A stretch of 64,000 nucleotides of DNA, taken from assembly GCA_965223265.1 (NCBI GenBank), contig OZ244999.1, positions 3,424,001 through 3,488,000 on the forward strand, in the 5' to 3' direction. A model generated the notes under the pieces. The model worked only from the letters and a program-made list of their open reading frames with translations. It searched no databases and was not told where the DNA came from. Of the stretch, positions 1 to 53,466 are shown piece by piece. Each line of letters starts with the position of its first letter. The first letter of the stretch is position 1. The DNA is from Planctomycetota bacterium (lineage in GTDB: Bacteria > Planctomycetota > UBA8108 > SXIK01). The position numbers were made by a program, and so were the translations under genes.

Positions 1-1859
1 TTTTCCCGCATCCGGCTTTCGGACAAGGTTCATACTTTCGCCCACGGAAAGTTGCGCGTCCGCTCAGTGAGTCGGACTAGACCGAGTACGCGGTGCAGGT
101 ATGTGTCGGGAAATCGTGACGTTCCTCGACCCGGCACTTTGTGTTTACGGCACAACCACTGACGCAGCCGGTTGCCGGCGTGCAAATCCACGGTGGCATA
201 GGCCTTGCTAACAGGCCCAAGGCGGAAGTAGTTGGCCCAGCCGATCATGGTTCGGTTGAGTTCAGCTACGAGCTCCTTGGCGTCGCGGGTACTCCAGCGA
301 CGGCTGGTCTTTTCACTAATCGTGCGACAAAGCCCCACGACCTTCTTCTTGGACGGGCGTGTGCCGATGTAGGCTCGACCCGTCTTAGGCGACCAGCACC
401 TTCCCAGCGTGTAGCCCAGAAAGTCGAACGTCTCGTCCGGGACGCGGCATTGACGTGTCTTTGACTCGTTCACCGTCAGCTTCAGCCGTTGCATCATGTT
501 CCTCATCACGCGCATGGCCTCGTCGGCACTGCCGCGACAGCAGATCACGAAATCGTCGGCGTAGTTGACAATTCGGGCGCGCAAGCGCCTCTGGTACCCG
601 AGCACCTTCCAACCCACGATGAATCGTCGCATGTAGAGGTTACTAAGCAGCGGTGAGATCGGAGCGCCTTGCGGACAGCCCCGGCCCTCGTCCTTATTGC
701 GCGTCGTTCGTTGTTTTCGACCCCGCTCGTCCGTCTCTTCTACCGGCGCGACAAGCCACATCTTGATCAGGTGCAGTACCTGTTTATCACTGATGCGACG
801 TGCCACCGATTTCATGAGCTCGGTGTGTGGGATCGTGTCGAAGTAGCCGCTTAAGTCTGCGTCGATGACCTCTGTATGGCCAGTATTCAGTAGCGAGTGG
901 ATCTTGCCTATGGCCTCCAAAGCGCTACGGTTGGGACGGTAGGCGTACTGCTCCGGCTGCAGGTCTGCCTCGAATATCGCTTCGAGGATCAGCACGGCTG
1001 CCGTCTGCACGACACGGTCGCGGATCGTTGGGATACCCAACGGCCGCTGCTTACCATTCGCCTTCGGAATATACACCCGGCGAACCGCTTGCGGACGATA
1101 CCTCTTCTCTTTGAGCTCCGTCGTCAGTTCGTCCAACCACCGCTCGAGACCTTCTCTCTCGATGTCTTCGAACCGCTCGCCGTCCACTCCTGCGGCTCCA
1201 CCGTTGGCACGGCAGCAGCGGTAGGCGTGTTCGAGAACGTCCGGTCGATACACCTTGTCGTAGAGGGCATAGAAACGAAAGTTGGGCGATTCCTTCGCTT
1301 TGGTATGTAACGCCGCCTGCAGCTTCCGAACCTTTGGTGGGGTTGGTAGGCTCATGCCAATCTCCCGGCTCTCATGGCTTCTGACGTTAGCCTTGAACTA
1401 AGGCCCCTTCCCTCGACCGGCATTACCCGGCGTCTGCGGTACTACGGGCCTATCCGCCGCCCTGGACGGCCCGGCCTGCTCCTCGCGGAGTTCCGGTTTG
1501 GCGCTCACGCCGCGCCACCGTCGGGGTTTCCCGTGTTGCATCGAATCTCCGTTGGCACGCATGCCATCGCCACTACCCCGGCAGGAACCACTGGATGCTG
1601 TCGCTCTTCTCGTCCATTGGTTGGCAGCCTTCCCCTGTTTAGCGGAGGGTCGGCTCCTGCATTGACTCTTTCGAGGCCTGCTCGGCGTTCACTCACGTTA
1701 CGGCCTGCGTGCTCGCTGGGTCGCCCAGCGACCCTTTTCCTGAAGTACTTCGACGTAGGTCGTTGCCTCCCTCCGTCGCTCCGGGTGCTACCGGCTGGAG
1801 CGACCAGTTGCCGGGTGGGATTCTCACCCACTGAGGATTCGTGCCTTTTCACGGCGTAC
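1..1859 (-). mobile_element. Group II intron (3' end beyond window edge)
   Basis: Minus strand starts GTACGCCGTGAAAAGGCACG at 1859 (GUGYG-like). About 500 nt of non-coding leader precede the RT ORF. The start of domain V (GAAAGCCGGATGCGGGAAAA) follows the RT stop at positions 20-1. Confidence 0.9.
30..1355 (-). CDS. ltrA: Group II intron reverse transcriptase/maturase, no endonuclease domain
   Basis: [38 protein letters not shown] and maturase X domain (GWANYF); 441 aa. Confidence 0.95.
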
Positions 1860-1871
1860 GCCAAACTCGAG
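1860..1871. mobile_element. Outer 12 bp of an IS701-type terminal inverted repeat, interrupted by the intron
   Basis: GCCAAACTCGAG is identical to the ends at 28277-28288 and 53455-53466; followed by GTTAG, which resembles the GCTAG/GTCAA target duplications. Confidence 0.75.
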
Positions 1872-1924
1872 GTTAGGAGCGGATTCAGATCAAGCGCGGG
1901 CAGAGGGCAACGGACGTCCCGCGA

Positions 1925-3058
1925 TCAACCAGCGATCCGTTCCACCGCTTGCAACAGCGCTTTGATGTAGCCGTAGCCGAAGGCGAACCCCTGCAGCCCG
2001 CCTGGATCGTCTTTGTGACCGGGCATGTGGTCAGGCATGAGCATGTACTCGTAGTCGACTTCGTGAAGCGTCAGCGCGACCTCAAGCATGTCCATGTCGC
2101 CTTCGTCCGGGTACACCTCTTGAAAGTCGTCGCGCCGGCCGCGGATGTTGCGAAAGTGGATATTGAAGATCTTCTTTCGCTTGCCGAAGTACCGGATGAC
2201 TTCGTGGATCTCACGACGCGGGTCTTGCAGCATTTCGGCAGTTGTCCCAAGGCAAAGATTGAATCCGTGGTAGGGACTCTCCTCGATCGCGGCGAATCTT
2301 TTGAGCCCTTCGAACGTGCCAAGCACGCGGTCGATTCCCTGGTAGCCTTCCGGCGGCATACCAGGATCGTGCGGGTGACAAGCAGCGCGAATCTTGTATT
2401 CGTTACAGACAGGAATGATACGTTCGAGAAAGTACGTGATGCGTTCCCAAAAGATGTCGGCAGTGACGTGGCCGGCTCGAGTGAGCGGTGTCGGCGGCTT
2501 GGCGTCGCGCAGGCGCCACGTGCTGTACGAAGAGCCGCCGCGGCCGGGAGTGCGTTCAGTGCGAGGCACACCGAGAAGGCTCATGTTGTACTTCATAGCG
2601 GGAATGCCGGCGGCGGCGCAGTGTGCGATCATCTTTTGAATGTGCTCAATGTCGCGATCGCGCTCGGGGCTCTTTCCGAGCATGATGGCGCCCCGTTTCT
2701 CACGATCGATGTGGCTCGAACTAAGAAACGGCAATGCGACCATGTCGAGCGTGATGCCGTGACGTTCGCAAAGCTCGCGGGTTTTCTCCAGGTCTTCCAC
2801 GCTCCAGTAGCCACGTTCGCCGGGATGCGGCGGGTAGCCGCAGATGTGGTTGACGCCGTGGCGCTTGAAATACTCCAGCCGCTCCGGGGTGGTTCCTGGG
2901 CGCTGCGTGCCAACGTACATTTTGACTGGGCGCCTCGGCCGCGCGGGCGATCGGTCGGGGGTCGCCGCGCGCGTCGGCTTGTGCGCGGAAGTCGTGGCGG
3001 CTACGGCGGCTCCACCCAGTCCGGCAGTGGCGGTGGTGAGAAAGTCACGGCGATTCAT
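1925..3058 (-). CDS. Mannonate dehydratase (UxuA family) with Tat signal
   Basis: MNRRDFL Tat motif; HPHDP, GFNLCLGT, IHFRNIRG and MPDHMP motifs. Confidence 0.85.
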   Translation of the reverse strand: MNRRDFLTTATAGLGGAAVAATTSAHKPTRAATPDRSPARPRRPVKMYVGTQRPGTTPERLEYFKRHGVNHICGYPPHPGERGYWSVEDLEKTRELCERHGITLDMVALPFLSSSHIDREKRGAIMLGKSPERDRDIEHIQKMIAHCAAAGIPAMKYNMSLLGVPRTERTPGRGGSSYSTWRLRDAKPPTPLTRAGHVTADIFWERITYFLERIIPVCNEYKIRAACHPHDPGMPPEGYQGIDRVLGTFEGLKRFAAIEESPYHGFNLCLGTTAEMLQDPRREIHEVIRYFGKRKKIFNIHFRNIRGRRDDFQEVYPDEGDMDMLEVALTLHEVDYEYMLMPDHMPGHKDDPGGLQGFAFGYGYIKALLQAVERIAG

Positions 3059-3488
3059 TACAGACCTCGTGGCTCAGGTTGGTGGTGGCCTCGCCCCCTC
3101 CTATCGGTCGAGCTCGGCAGTGAGAGGCTACCTGGACTCCATTTCCTGCGTCTGCAAAAAAAAGCTGAGCGAAAGTCTCGTTGGTGGCGATGCATCGCTC
3201 ACCTCATGGAGCCGCCACGAGCGGGGGCGCTGCGCCTGTCGACTTCGGAGCTGCGTGCGTGCCTCCGCGCCTGCCTCCTCATTCGGCTCGGTTTCTCAAC
3301 TTCAAGCACACGTCGGATCCGTTCGACGCAGGGCGCCGGCGTCCAACAACACCAAACACGGAGCACGGGTTCGATGACTCAAATCGAGCTTCTGCAAGAC
3401 TTTCGGAGATCTCGTGAGAACCATAGCTGGAGTGACTTGAAACGATCCGAGGTCGAGAGTCGAGCGTGCATTGGTGTTACTGTTTTGT

Positions 3489-27851: not shown

Positions 27852-28035
27852 AACAGTCCGTTGAGAAAATGCTTCGAGCCGAAAACTGGTCTCTTCGCGT
27901 CCAGATCGGCCGCGTCAAACGCAGGCAATCTTCGCGCCCTCTTCTTTCGATTCTGATGGCGAGTATTGACGCGGCCCGTCTGGGCGTGAAGAGGTCAGTT
28001 TCCTCGGCCGAATGACTTTTTCAATGGGCTGTCAA
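27852..28035 (+). mobile_element. MITE-A copy 2
   Basis: Same arms as copy 1 (GCTTCGAGCCGAAAACTGGTCTCTTCGCGTCCAGATCGGCCGCG...GAATGACTTTTTCAATGGGCTG) with a longer centre. Confidence 0.85.
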
Positions 28036-28288
28036 CTCGAGTTTGGCCATTTCGCGTCGAGCCTGCGAACGCCAGGAGCGTCGAGGCCAAGGAGCGACGA
28101 CAACGCGATCCCGCTCGGGTCGTGGCGGAGGAGCGACGCAGGCATCGGCGCTCCTGGCGTTCCCCGAAGGGCCGGACAGGAGTTTTTGAACATGCACAAG
28201 GGTTCTCAGGGTACTAAAAAGTCGAAAGGGCCTTTGAATTCCCGCGAAACTCGTCCGGCCAGGCCGGCGCGAAATGGCCAAACTCGAG
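28036..28288. mobile_element. MITE-B: non-autonomous 253-bp element with IS701-type ends
   Basis: Perfect 21-bp TIR CTCGAGTTTGGCCATTTCGCG; 5-bp TSD GTCAA (28031-35 / 28289-93); first 15 bp identical to the IS at 52018. Confidence 0.9.
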
Positions 28289-51850: not shown

Positions 51851-52017
51851 CTAGCAGCCTGTTGAAAAAGTGCTTCGAGCCGAAAACTGGTCTCTTCGCG
51901 TCCAGATCGGCCGCGGCAAACGCAGGTAATCTCCGAGATTTTCGAGTATTGACGCGGTCGAGCTGGGCGTGAAGAGGCCGGTTTCTCGGCCGAATGACTT
52001 TTTCAACGGGCTGCTAG
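51851..52017 (+). mobile_element. MITE-A copy 3
   Basis: CTAG-CAGCCTGTTGAAAAAGT...ACTTTTTCAACGGGCTG-CTAG, with CTAG at both ends. Confidence 0.9.
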
Positions 52018-53466
52018 CTCGAGTTTGGCCATGGAATAGGCCGGTAAAGAAAGACACCTCCGCTACCGATAACGAAGTTGCAAAACACTATTATCGGACG
52101 GAGGTGAAGAGTGTCTCCAGTATCGTCGTTTCTGTCCCTCTTGGCCAGCTTTGCTCCACTGATGACGCCGTCGAGTTTTGAGAACTTCCAGTTGCTCGCC
52201 GGTGGCTGGGTCCTGAGCACGCGACGAAGGACGGTTACCGAGCTCATTCAGCGTGTAGGTGTGGTAGAACTGAAAAGCTACTCGACGTTCCATCGATTTT
52301 TCAATCGCGCACAGTGGTCGATCGACGAAGTTGGCCGCTTGGTACTGTCGCTCGCGCTGCGTCTGATTCCACCGGGTGGAGTTGTCCGCCTCGTCGTCGA
52401 CGACACGCTTTGCAAAAAAGGCGGGCAGCACATCTTCGGCAGTGGTATGCACCGTGATGCTTTGGCGTCGACTCGTAAGCTCGCGAGACTGAGCTGGGGC
52501 CACAACTGGGTGGTCGTCGGCGTGATCGTCGAGTTCCCGTTCGCGCGTGGAATCTCGTGGTGTCTTCCGATCGCGTTTCGACTCTACGTCACCAAGACGA
52601 GACCGAAGAGCCAGCGGTGGCGTGAAGAGACCGTCTATCGCACACGTCCCGAGCTCGCAGTGGAGATGCTCGAGATGATCGCCAAATGGCACCCAAATAG
52701 GCGTTTCCTGCTGGTTGGCGATTCGGCGTATGGCGGTGGTTCGGTGTTGAGAAATCTTCCCGAGCGGTTTCACCTCACCAGCCGCATCGTCATGGATGCC
52801 GCGCTCTTTGCTCCGCCGCCACGGCGCTATGCGGGTACGGGGCGTCCACGGCGAAGAGGAAAGCGTCTGCCGAGTCCTAAACAGATCGCGTCTTCGAGAA
52901 GGCCATGGAAAAAGCTGAATCTTCGACTCTACGGGGCGAAGCGTCGCGTTCTCGTCAAAGAGACCGAAGGCCTCTGGCTCAAGAGCGACTACCGCCCCAT
53001 CAAGGTCGTCGTGGTGCGCGACCCTCGTGGTGTGAACAAAGACGAAGCGTTCTATTCCACCGACACCAAGGCGTCCGCAACGACCATTCTTCAGACCTAC
53101 TCGCGACGATGGAGCATCGAGGTCGCATTCGAAAACGCCAAGGGGCACTTCGGCTTTGAAGATCCACAGAATCGAACCGTCGAAGCCGTGCAACGCACGG
53201 CGCCTTTCGGTGCGTTGTTGTACAGCATGGTGATTCTTTGGTTCAACGCCCACGGTCATAAGAAATGTCGATTCCCAAATCGCCCTTGGTATGAACGTAA
53301 GTGCTTTGCTTCGTTTAAAGATATGGTCGATACGCTACGAGCCGAATCACTCCACGAGCACTTTCGACGCACCCCGGCTTCTGTTCGGGGGCGACAAAAG
53401 ACCCTTCAGGCTGCGTTCGCAGCATTGGGGCTCGTTGCATGACCAGAATCCATGGCCAAACTCGAG
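52018..53466 (+). mobile_element. IS701-family insertion sequence, 1449 bp
   Basis: 18-bp perfect TIR CTCGAGTTTGGCCATGGA; 5-bp TSD GCTAG (52013-17 / 53467-71); one transposase ORF. Confidence 0.92.
52111..53442 (+). CDS. IS701-family DDE transposase
   Basis: VVDDTLCKK, WGHNWVV, LPIAFRLY, GDSAYG, YSRRWSIEVAF. Confidence 0.9.
   Translation: MSPVSSFLSLLASFAPLMTPSSFENFQLLAGGWVLSTRRRTVTELIQRVGVVELKSYSTFHRFFNRAQWSIDEVGRLVLSLALRLIPPGGVVRLVVDDTLCKKGGQHIFGSGMHRDALASTRKLARLSWGHNWVVVGVIVEFPFARGISWCLPIAFRLYVTKTRPKSQRWREETVYRTRPELAVEMLEMIAKWHPNRRFLLVGDSAYGGGSVLRNLPERFHLTSRIVMDAALFAPPPRRYAGTGRPRRRGKRLPSPKQIASSRRPWKKLNLRLYGAKRRVLVKETEGLWLKSDYRPIKVVVVRDPRGVNKDEAFYSTDTKASATTILQTYSRRWSIEVAFENAKGHFGFEDPQNRTVEAVQRTAPFGALLYSMVILWFNAHGHKKCRFPNRPWYERKCFASFKDMVDTLRAESLHEHFRRTPASVRGRQKTLQAAFAALGLVA

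What the first reader, a model, noticed from the sequence alone, without database searches (positions are those of the whole stretch)
1840..1876. Group II intron inserted inside an IS701-type terminal inverted repeat
Seen: on the minus strand the intron 5' end (1859) is directly preceded by CTCGAGTTTGGC. These are the outer 12 bp of the TIR CTCGAGTTTGGC|CAT, which occurs intact four times elsewhere (28036, 28288, 52018, 53466). Just outside lies GTTAG, matching the GYYAR pattern of the two observed target duplications. Known: bacterial group II introns often reside in IS elements, usually within ORFs. Inference: this endonuclease-less intron homes to the TIR itself, a multicopy target present twice per IS or MITE, and would inactivate that end at the DNA level. 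GCCAA(A/C), complementary to the 5' exon end, occurs three times in the intron leader (plus-strand 1497-1502, 1551-1556, 1620-1625); these are EBS1 candidates.
Basis: partly seen in the sequence, partly recalled or inferred. Interest (0 to 1): 0.85.

Follow-up and report, generated by a model that had tools for sequence, protein, structure and literature searches.

The report
Group II intron homing into MITE ends
A self-splicing, mobile group II intron without its own DNA-cutting domain sits at exactly the same spot inside the terminal repeat of a family of small transposons in all five of its copies in this genome, a parasite-on-a-parasite arrangement that has one published precedent in another bacterium.

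Summary
On the minus strand a 1988-nt group II intron (window -128..1859) starts right after CTCGAGTTTGGC, the outer 12 bp of the terminal inverted repeat (TIR) of an IS701-family IS and its ~253-bp MITEs. Beyond the window's left edge the 3' exon continues the TIR (CGTTTCGCGCC against consensus CATTTCGCGCC). All 5 intron copies in the 9.18-Mb genome sit at this 12|13 position. The introns are 98.6-99.9% identical and their host MITEs 65-91%, so the intron entered already diverged MITEs.

The protein has RT and maturase domains only, with no endonuclease. Comparison with 58 relatives places EBS1 (GCUAAAC), EBS2 (GAG) and EBS3 (G). These pair with TIR positions 6-12, 1-3 and 13.

A truncated copy of a related intron lies at the same TIR position in a genome of another family of the same order.

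The strategy is already published for RmInt2 in the inverted repeats of ISRm17 (PMC4615759). This is therefore a new member of a known kind: the intron lacks the class D motif, the IS family differs, and the hosts are MITEs. Loss of mobility of the interrupted end, and splicing itself, remain untested.

The parts
1..1859 (-). Group II intron, the part inside the window. The full element is 1988 nt and runs to window -128 (genome 3423872-3425859). 5' end GUACG, 3' end CUCUAC.
   Evidence: blastn gives copies aligned over 1..1988. Flanks rejoin to the uninterrupted TIR. Rfam hit. DV and DVI with a bulged A lie left of the window.
1860..1871 (-). 5' exon = outer 12 bp of the MITE/IS701 TIR (CTCGAGTTTGGC). 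Holds IBS2 (CUC, -12..-10) and IBS1 (GUUUGGC, -7..-1).
1872..1876 (+). GTTAG flank of the host MITE, like a target duplication. The other flank, outside the window, is GTGAA (3 of 5 match).
1637..1643 (-). EBS1 GCUAAAC (intron 217-223), in a hairpin loop. Makes 7 pairs with GUUUGGC, one of them G.U. All Watson-Crick with the UUUAGC variant of copy c5.
   Evidence: Covariation with 5' exons in 59 sequences: 4.73 observed against 2.87 shuffled, 0 of 1000 shuffles reach it. RNAalifold hairpin loop. Two held-out introns agree.
1665..1668 (-). EBS2 GAGU (intron 192-195), directly after the conserved CCUCGAAA. GAG pairs with CUC at -12..-10, the first three bases of the TIR.
   Evidence: Covariation 4.07 observed against 3.15 shuffled, 0 of 1000. 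Unpaired internal loop.
1573..1573 (-). EBS3 G287, in a 2-nt bulge of GGGGUAGUGG. Pairs with C at +1 of the 3' exon (TIR position 13).
   Evidence: Complementary to +1 in 40 of 42 sequences, including 8 of 9 where +1 is not C. Unpaired.
1747..1747 (-). U113, C in 57 of 58 relatives. Proposed epsilon' partner of A3 (G in 58 of 58 relatives), so G3-C would have become A3-U.
   Evidence: The assignment to epsilon-epsilon' is an inference from general group II anatomy (recalled).
1693..1833 (-). Domain I segment matched by Rfam RF02003 group-II-D1D4-4.
   Evidence: 90.3 bits, E 1.4e-18
30..1355 (-). Intron-encoded protein, 441 aa: reverse transcriptase and maturase (X) domains, no D/En domain.
   Evidence: Pfam RVT_1 2.5e-36 and GIIM 2.8e-15. 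TIGR04416 350 bits against a cutoff of 300.
1925..3073 (-). Upstream gene in the same orientation as the intron (UxuA-like mannonate dehydratase). Its stop codon lies 65 nt before the intron 5' end, so it is a possible source of read-through transcription.
   Evidence: PF03786, 1.6e-44
28036..28288 (.). Uninterrupted 253-bp MITE of the host family (end A at 28036, end B at 28288), duplication GTCAA. Shows the empty target CTCGAGTTTGGC|CATTTCGCG.
52018..53466 (+). Autonomous 1449-bp IS701-family element with the same 15-bp TIR tip and duplication GCTAG. Transposase at 52111-53442.

Best explanation
This is a mobile bacterial group II intron with a IIB-like domain I, a protein with reverse transcriptase and maturase domains only, and no endonuclease. 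Its natural homing site is the tip of the terminal inverted repeat of an IS701-family MITE/IS family.

The intron RNA recognises the site by base pairing. EBS2 (GAG) pairs with TIR bases 1-3. EBS1 (GCUAAAC) pairs with TIR bases 6-12. EBS3 (G) pairs with TIR base 13. The RNA reverse-splices between bases 12 and 13.

Because the protein cannot cut the second strand, copying into DNA is most likely primed by a nascent strand at a replication fork, as in other endonuclease-less introns. This step is inferred.

The roughly 140 unoccupied MITE/IS ends in the genome form a large, mostly intergenic pool of targets where an insertion should do little harm. Five are occupied. Transcription probably comes by read-through from neighbouring genes (inferred). 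The insertion separates the outer 12 bp of the TIR from the rest by 2 kb, which should cripple that end for transposition (inferred, not tested).
For: Same site in every copy. 5 of 5 copies found by blastn lie between CTCGAGTTTGGC (c5: CTCGAGTTTAGC) and C(A/G)(T/A)TTCGCGCC, which continues the TIR. Their outer flanks are unrelated.

Independent insertions. Introns are 98.6-99.9% identical, while their four measurable host MITEs are 65-91% identical.

Recognition elements.
- EBS1 and EBS2 were placed by covariation with 5' exons in 59 sequences; 0 of 1000 shuffles reach the observed value for either.
- EBS3 is complementary to +1 in 40 of 42 sequences.
- An RNAalifold consensus of 36 sequences puts EBS1 in a hairpin loop and EBS2 and EBS3 in unpaired internal positions. 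18 of 34 pairs carry compensatory changes.
- Two introns not in the alignment obey the same EBS1 rule.

Signs of function.
- The ORF is intact in 3 of the 5 copies (c1, c2, c3).
- c1 and c2 differ at 19 ORF positions, 10 synonymous and 9 non-synonymous.
- DV with the AGC triad and a DVI with a bulged A 7 nt from the 3' end are present.
- The unusual A3 is matched by U113.

No endonuclease: Pfam finds only RVT_1 and GIIM.

Other genomes. Genome G012 (same order, different family) has 64 nt of a related GUACG intron directly after CTCGAGTTTCGC, and 3 uninterrupted CTCGAGTTTCGCCAT.

Orientation. 4 of 5 copies have their sense strand on the leading strand, which equals the lagging-strand template.

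Upstream genes. Real genes in the intron's orientation end 65 nt (UxuA, c1) and 13 nt (DUF1501, c4) before the intron.

Precedent. RmInt2 in the inverted repeats of ISRm17 (PMC4615759, passages read).
Against: There is no direct evidence of splicing or mobility. No RNA run was listed.

The EBS2-IBS2 pairing in this intron is only 3 bp (4 bp in c3).

The 5' end is GUACG, not the GUGCG of all 58 relatives. The compensating U113 is a single event whose assignment to epsilon' is inferred.

Own domain I differs from relatives at 15 of 220 columns that are at least 95% conserved. This is near the top of the leave-one-out range of 0-16. It could reflect decay or simply phylogenetic distance.

The strand bias of 4 in 5 is not significant against 68 co-oriented of 140 empty sites.

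Occupancy is low (5 of 145), and two of the five copies are dead: c4 is cut by an IS1634-family element, and c5 is a 372-nt deletion derivative that lacks EBS1.

All five sit in B-type or B-like ends, though A and B ends are identical through +9. This is unexplained and not significant (Fisher p=0.16).

3 of 5 occupied sites have G at +2 against 8 of 140 empty sites (p=0.003). This is also unexplained.
Confidence: 0.82

Rival explanations
1. The intron inserted once into one MITE. The MITE-plus-intron composite was then spread by the IS701 transposase, so the shared flanks reflect transposition of the host and not intron homing.
For: All copies lie in the same type of MITE end (B or B-like). 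MITEs of this family are clearly mobile: 33 of 53 paired elements have perfect 5-bp duplications.
Against: Host MITEs of the four measurable copies are only 65-91% identical, and one belongs to a different subfamily (far end CATTCGGTGCACC). The introns are 98.6-99.9% identical.

0 of 4 intron-bearing elements has a perfect duplication and only 1 of 4 has an exact far TIR. This is the opposite of what recent transposition would leave.

The TIR is split 12 bp from its tip.

EBS1, EBS2 and EBS3 pair with exactly this site.
Confidence: 0.04
2. The intron did home to the TIR in the past but is now an immobile relic. The GUACG 5' end and accumulated changes have killed splicing or mobility, and the copies are simply decaying.
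For: A3 replaces the G3 found in 58 of 58 relatives, and 15 of 220 conserved domain I columns differ. Two of five copies are broken. The intron was not found in the 3 same-family genomes searched. Occupancy is only 5 of 145 sites.
Against: Three copies keep a full 441-aa ORF. c2 and c3 are 99.9% identical, so they duplicated recently. Differences in the ORF are 10 synonymous to 9 non-synonymous, which fits purifying selection. A3 is matched by U113. The G012 remnant also starts GUACG, so this 5' end is a lineage trait older than these copies.
Confidence: 0.12
3. The site preference is set mainly by the protein or by DNA structure at transposon ends (for example single-stranded or nicked TIRs during transposition), and not by the EBS-IBS pairings proposed here.
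For: EBS2-IBS2 is only 3 bp. A ends offer a better -13 base for EBS2 (33 of 52 have A or G) yet none is occupied. G at +2 is enriched at occupied sites (p=0.003), and no RNA pairing found here explains it. For the related class D introns the protein reads the distal exon positions (PMC4615759, passages).
Against: EBS1, EBS2 and EBS3 covary with their exons across the clade. A 7-bp EBS1 pairing plus EBS3 fits the site exactly. A cut by the transposase at the TIR tip lies on the 5'-exon side, where it cannot prime cDNA synthesis (inference).
Confidence: 0.1

Closest known systems
RmInt2 of Sinorhizobium meliloti GR4, which homes to the inverted repeats of ISRm17 (Martinez-Rodriguez et al., RNA Biol 2014, PMC4615759; passages read)
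   Same: An endonuclease-less group II intron whose genomic copies all lie inside the terminal inverted repeats of a transposable element. Recognition uses IBS2, IBS1 and IBS3 with a weak EBS2 pairing. The repeat offers two sites per element on opposite strands. Copy number is low (7 there, 5 here).
   Different: RmInt2 is ORF class D with a 419-aa protein carrying the motif LX3AX3PXLF[V/A]HW. The protein here is 441 aa and its C-terminus lacks that motif.

The host here is an IS701-family repeat, and all five occupied sites are in non-autonomous MITEs; 0 of 8 IS ends are occupied.

RmInt2 mobility and its lagging-strand bias were shown experimentally. Here they are only inferred.

I did not see Fig. 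S1 of that paper, so I cannot compare the exact position within the repeat.
RmInt1 in ISRm2011-2, Sr.md.I1 in an IS66-family transposase ORF, and relatives of the present intron lying under annotated IS66-family transposase genes
   Same: Endonuclease-less introns that use multicopy insertion sequences as homing sites. The IIB-like EBS1/EBS2/EBS3 logic is the same.
   Different: Those targets lie inside transposase genes (PMC4615759, passages). For relatives of the present intron, 5 of the 25 listed plasmid records have an IS66-family transposase annotated under the match. The present target is the non-coding TIR tip.
Class C (IIC) group II introns that insert after terminators or at attC sites
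   Same: Endonuclease-less introns that use a repeated, structured, non-coding DNA motif as a safe haven.
   Different: IIC introns lack EBS2 and recognise a DNA stem-loop (statement in PMC3753933, passages). This intron has EBS1, EBS2 and EBS3 that covary with a sequence-defined site.

Membership tests
Bacterial mobile group II intron | Conserved ribozyme domains: domain I core, DV with the AGC triad, DVI with a bulged branch-point A | tested here: met
   Rfam RF02003 at 90.3 bits against a gathering score of 49. DV AAGCCGGAUGCGGGAAAACCGCACGUCCGGUUU and a DVI helix with a bulged A 7 nt from the 3' end. The same layout is seen in 52 relatives.
Bacterial mobile group II intron | 5' boundary GUGYG and 3' boundary AY | tested here: inconclusive
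   The 3' end is ...CUCUAC. The 5' end is GUACG in all 5 copies and in the G012 remnant, whereas 58 of 58 relatives have GUGCG. A possible compensating change is C113 to U.
Bacterial mobile group II intron | EBS1/IBS1, EBS2/IBS2 and EBS3/IBS3 pairings with the flanking exons | tested here: met
   In this intron: EBS1 7 bp, EBS2 3 bp, EBS3 1 bp.
Bacterial mobile group II intron | Intron-encoded reverse transcriptase/maturase in domain IV | tested here: met
   TIGR04416 at 350 bits against a cutoff of 300, plus RVT_1 and GIIM
Endonuclease-less (RT-X only) intron lineages | No D/En (HNH) domain after domain X | tested here: met
   Pfam at E<=0.01 lists only RVT_1 (residues 96-317) and GIIM (343-410) in 441 aa. 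Only 31 residues follow GIIM.
ORF class D (RmInt1/RmInt2 type) | C-terminal class D motif LX3AX3PXLF[V/A]HW (as given in PMC4615759) | tested here: not met
   The C-terminus reads ...[27 protein letters not shown], with no PxLF[V/A]HW. A tblastn of the last 112 aa against plasmids listed Sinorhizobium fredii at 43.8% and no S. meliloti among the 25 rows shown. The intron's class was not otherwise assigned.
IS701 family (host repeat) | DDE transposase matching the family model above its cutoff | tested here: met
   NF049999 transpos_IS701_3 at 348 bits against a cutoff of 170; Pfam DDE_5 at 5.8e-25
MITE derived from that IS | Short, multicopy, shares the IS's TIR tip, flanked by the same target duplication | tested here: met
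   34 of 53 paired elements are 250-259 bp. They share the 15-bp tip CTCGAGTTTGGCCAT with the 1449-bp IS. 33 of 53 have perfect 5-bp duplications. Absence of coding capacity was not formally tested.
TIR-homing strategy (RmInt2/ISRm17 type) | All genomic copies lie within the terminal inverted repeat of one transposon family | tested here: met
   5 of 5 copies, plus a remnant in G012
TIR-homing strategy (RmInt2/ISRm17 type) | Bias towards the lagging-strand template | tested here: inconclusive
   4 of 5 copies are co-oriented with the leading strand, against 68 of 140 empty sites. Five copies are too few.
TIR-homing strategy (RmInt2/ISRm17 type) | Demonstrated retrohoming into the cloned repeat | not testable with these tools
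   Needs a donor/recipient plasmid assay.

The most novel reading that the evidence does not exclude
TIR homing has arisen independently in an intron lineage that lacks the class D motif, and here it is aimed at MITEs. By splitting the TIR 12 bp from its tip, the intron would act as a brake on MITE and IS701 mobility. Intron-bearing MITEs would become frozen and decay: 0 of 4 have a perfect duplication against 33 of 53 paired elements overall. The consensus TIR (A at +2) would be a deliberately poor target, with the rare G(+2) and UUUAGC variants preferred.
Probability: 0.3. Interest if true: 0.55.

Novelty: new member of a known kind. Interest (0 to 1): 0.42.

Why it matters
This is a second, independent natural example of a group II intron using transposon terminal repeats as its homing site. 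The bacterial lineage differs, the intron lacks the class D motif, and the hosts are MITEs. That suggests the strategy recurs and is not peculiar to Sinorhizobium.

The case is also a clean natural data set: 140 empty and 5 occupied near-identical sites, with EBS1, EBS2 and EBS3 mapped. It could be used to study target rules of endonuclease-less introns, including the unexplained G(+2) enrichment and the preference for one MITE end. It could also be used to ask whether an intron can silence a transposon end.

It does not change the general picture of group II intron biology.

Tried and rejected
I tested them for covariation with the 5' exon and rejected them: 375, 161 and 661 of 1000 shuffles reach the observed value.

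First automatic scan for EBS sites over the whole domain I alignment. It gave no clear signal, because stem bases and alignment shifts blurred it. I replaced it with a reading of the alignment and then loop-restricted tests. An intermediate version still included stem bases, and I do not use its numbers.

Single-sequence MFE fold of domain I. Not trusted for 560 nt. Only the DV/DVI fold from that call is used.

RNA evidence. No RNA holder was listed by the look-up of sequencing runs. Contigs of four runs of unknown kind were laid on the locus. They break at the repeat borders, and no contig joins across the intron or spans it, so they say nothing about splicing or about an empty allele.

Class assignment. 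The passages I read in PMC3753933 and PMC3552965 did not let me assign the intron to class E, F or another variety. The tables listing members are supplementary files, which I could not see and which may bear on this. Only class D was tested, and it was not met.

Preference for the B-type MITE end: not significant (Fisher p=0.16). Replication-strand bias: not significant with 5 copies. Exchange of flanks by recombination between intron copies was considered as a cause of the missing duplications. No 5' flank of one copy matches the far flank of another (flanks, compared by eye).

Transposase nicks at the TIR tip as primers for cDNA synthesis. Rejected on geometry, because the tip lies on the 5'-exon side.

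Literature. Searches for 'group II intron' with 'miniature inverted-repeat' and 'retrohoming' found 0 papers. 'Group II intron' with 'IS701' found 2, which looked unrelated by their titles and abstract openings. 'Group II intron' with 'MITE' and 'terminal inverted repeat' found 14 papers, 11 listed. I opened only PMC9769881, and it was unrelated.

Rows dropped:
- Of the 80 loci, 58 had a recognisable 5' end with at least 30 nt upstream and 520 nt downstream and were aligned. The other 22 were left out as truncated or unmatched.
- 52 of those 58 had a DV match. 41 of them, plus the window's intron, had a 3' end with at least 3 following bases and were used for EBS3.
- For fold_alignment I gave 36 of the 55 distinct sequences, chosen by hand.
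Full report
What is there.

On the minus strand, window 1871-1860 reads CTCGAGTTTGGC. The next base (1859) starts GTACGCCGTG.... Rfam's group-II-D1D4-4 model matches 1833-1693(-) at 90.3 bits against a gathering score of 49.

The window lies in a single 9.18-Mb contig, so I could read on to the left. The element ends at window -128 with ...CCACCUCUCGACUCUAC. Before that end come a canonical domain V (AAGCCGGAUGCGGGAAAACCGCACGUCCGGUUU) and a long domain VI whose closing helix carries a bulged A 7 nt from the end. The length is 1988 nt.

The ORF at 30-1355(-) encodes 441 aa with RVT_1 and GIIM domains, and scores 350 bits against TIGR04416 (cutoff 300). Only 31 residues follow GIIM and no endonuclease domain is found.

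The host repeat.

The 12-mer is the tip of the TIR of a 1449-bp element at 52018-53466. Its 443-aa protein matches the IS701 model NF049999 at 348 bits against a cutoff of 170. The same tip ends ~253-bp MITEs such as 28036-28288.

The exact 12-mer occurs 134 times in the genome. Allowing one mismatch and requiring MITE or IS context, there are 140 unoccupied ends: 52 of type A, 58 of type B, 8 IS ends, 8 of type C and 14 others. Of 53 paired elements, 34 are 250-259 bp long and 33 have a perfect 5-bp duplication of the GYYAR type.

Joining the intron's two flanks gives CTCGAGTTTGGC + CGTTTCGCGCCGGCCTGGCCGGACGAG. This is the B-type MITE end with one change, G for A at +2. The host element ends 234 bp further on with an exact ATGGCCAAACTCGAG. 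Its flank there is GTGAA on the + strand and not GTTAG.

All copies.

blastn of the intron against the genome finds five copies: three of full length, one interrupted at position about 1788, and one 372-nt derivative (positions 1-213 joined to 1830-1988). Every copy lies between the 12-mer and C(A/G)(T/A)TTCGCGCC; c5 has the 12-mer variant CTCGAGTTTAGC. The sequences outside the TIR are unrelated.

The interrupting insert in c4 is an IS1634-family element: transposase 340 bits against a cutoff of 100, with a 14-bp overlap of the flanks.

The introns are 98.6-99.9% identical. The c4 values are slightly underestimated because my script kept 14 duplicated bases. The four host MITEs that can be measured are only 65-91% identical, and the window's host belongs to another subfamily. 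The intron therefore entered diverged MITE copies separately. It did not ride on a transposing composite.

The ORF is intact in c1, c2 and c3. c1 and c2 differ at 26 positions. 19 are in the ORF, 10 synonymous and 9 non-synonymous. Since far fewer sites are synonymous than non-synonymous, this points to purifying selection (inference).

How the site is read.

A scan of genome contigs gave 80 loci whose RT is 56-71% identical. 58 had a usable 5' end and were aligned with the window's intron. All 58 start GTGCGCCGTG.

Reading the alignment beside the 5' exons showed two variable patches that track the exon.
- EBS1: the loop of a hairpin, ACCCU-CCGCUAAAC-AGGGG in this intron.
- EBS2: the 4-5 bases after an invariant CCUCGAAA.

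Restricted tests confirm both.
- EBS1: the mean run of pairs anchored at -1 is 4.73 against 2.87 for shuffled exons, and 0 of 1000 shuffles reach it.
- EBS2: 4.07 against 3.15, and 0 of 1000 shuffles reach it.

One column, G287 in GGGGUAGUGG, is complementary to the first base of the 3' exon in 40 of 42 sequences, including 8 of the 9 in which that base is not C. This is EBS3.

RNAalifold on 36 of the 55 distinct sequences puts EBS1 in a hairpin loop, EBS2 in an internal loop and EBS3 in a two-base bulge. 18 of 34 pairs carry compensatory changes. This layout is IIB-like.

Two introns outside the alignment follow the EBS1 rule: Planctomyces sp. SH-PL62 plasmid (GACAUAA with UUAUGUC) and Frigoriglobus plasmid (CAGGC with GCCUG).

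In this intron:
- EBS1 GCUAAAC (window 1643-1637) makes 7 pairs with GUUUGGC, one of them G.U. With the UUUAGC of c5 the six pairs to -6..-1 are all Watson-Crick.
- EBS2 GAG (1668-1666) pairs with CUC, the first three TIR bases.
- EBS3 (1573) pairs with C at +1.

The RNA-read part of the target is thus TIR bases 1-3 and 6-13.

An odd 5' end.

All five copies, and the remnant in G012, start GUACG where 58 of 58 relatives have GUGCG. Position 113 is U where 57 of 58 relatives have C. By general group II anatomy (recalled), positions 3-4 pair with two bases in domain IC. G3-C becoming A3-U would keep that contact. This is an inference from a single event.

Own domain I differs from relatives at 15 of 220 strongly conserved columns, near the top of the leave-one-out range of 0-16.

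Elsewhere.

Among 40 related genomes the intron's 5' part was found only in G012 and G024, and in none of the 3 same-family genomes.

In G012 (same order, other family), 64 nt of a related intron follow CTAGC-CTCGAGTTTCGC and then break off. The same genome has three uninterrupted CTCGAGTTTCGCCAT. The link between this intron lineage and this TIR is therefore older than the present copies, or the pair moved together.

The G024 matches have other 5' exons.

Likely life cycle.

Shown: the sequence-specific site, separate insertions, intact ORFs, and the absence of an endonuclease.

Inferred:
- Read-through transcription. A UxuA-like gene ends 65 nt before the intron in c1, and a DUF1501 gene ends 13 nt before it in c4. 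Both are in the intron's orientation.
- Maturase-assisted splicing.
- Reverse splicing into the TIR.
- Priming by a nascent lagging strand, as for the endonuclease-less RmInt1 and RmInt2 (PMC4615759, passages).

GC skew puts the origin near 7.95 Mb and the terminus near 3.545 Mb. 4 of 5 copies have their sense strand on the leading strand, that is, on the lagging-strand template. The window's copy is the exception, about 120 kb from the terminus. Against 68 of 140 empty sites in that orientation this is not significant.

The claim that the split TIR is dead for transposition is plausible but untested. A hint in its favour is that 0 of 4 intron-bearing MITEs have a perfect duplication and only 1 of 4 an exact far TIR, against 33 of 53 paired elements with a perfect duplication.

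Unexplained.

All five copies are in B-type or B-like ends, although A and B ends are identical through +9 (Fisher p=0.16). 3 of 5 occupied sites have G at +2 against 8 of 140 empty ones (p=0.003). Among 41 relatives, +2 is G in 17, C in 14, A in 8 and T in 2.

What is known.

RmInt2 of S. meliloti GR4 has all its copies inside the inverted repeats of ISRm17. Its authors describe this as a way to double the number of targets and to guarantee one on the lagging-strand template (PMC4615759, passages read).

The present case uses the same strategy. It differs in three ways:
- The protein lacks the class D motif given in that paper.
- The IS family is IS701.
- All five occupied sites are in MITEs.

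My searches found no paper on a group II intron homing to MITEs or to IS701 repeats, but the library does not hold most subscription journals.

Verdict.

This is a new member of a known kind.

Noticed in passing
window 28016-28035 and 51998-52017; genome-wide: The MITEs and the IS often sit at the end of another repeat, ...GACTTTTTCAACGGGCTG followed by YTAR. That 15-mer occurs 417 times in the genome with up to 2 mismatches, and 29 of these are followed within 20 nt by the TIR. The next four bases are mostly TTAA, CTAG, CTAA or TTAG, which contain stop codons. It looks like an IS that targets a REP-like element or gene ends.
   Followed up: partly
genome 1896553-1898513 (L093), inside intron copy c4: An IS1634-family element (587-aa transposase, 340 bits) is inserted in the 3' part of the intron ORF, with a 14-bp overlap of the flanks. 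The result is an IS within an intron within a MITE. A second copy lies at genome 6866101-6868077, with a partial tandem piece just before it.
   Followed up: partly
genome 4285302-4285673 (in L090): A 372-nt ORF-less derivative of the intron (positions 1-213 joined to 1830-1988). It lacks EBS1 and most of domains I-IV. It sits in the only TIR copy with the UUUAGC variant, which pairs perfectly with EBS1.
   Followed up: partly
left of the window (window -20..-128); L004-L079: Domain VI of this intron clade is very long, about 110 nt, with a structured insert between the two strands of the branch-point helix. It is conserved in most of the 52 relatives in which DV was found.
   Followed up: no
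genome-wide MITE ends: MITE orientation is biased relative to replication. A ends: 17 co-oriented and 35 anti. B ends: 36 co-oriented and 22 anti.
   Followed up: no
L084 (G012:C170) and L086 (G012:C43): A genome of another family in the same order holds a 64-nt 5' remnant of a GUACG intron at the same TIR position, and a second, badly decayed copy (68% identical over 254 nt) after a degenerate TIR-like word.
   Followed up: partly
occupied sites in the genome against 140 empty sites: G at +2 of the 3' exon is found at 3 of 5 occupied sites but only 8 of 140 empty ones (Fisher p=0.003). No pairing partner for +2 was found.
   Followed up: partly
plasmid records H48, H50-H53: Relatives of this intron's protein on Bradyrhizobium elkanii and Burkholderia plasmids lie under annotated IS66-family transposase genes, so use of IS elements as targets seems common in the clade.
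   Followed up: no
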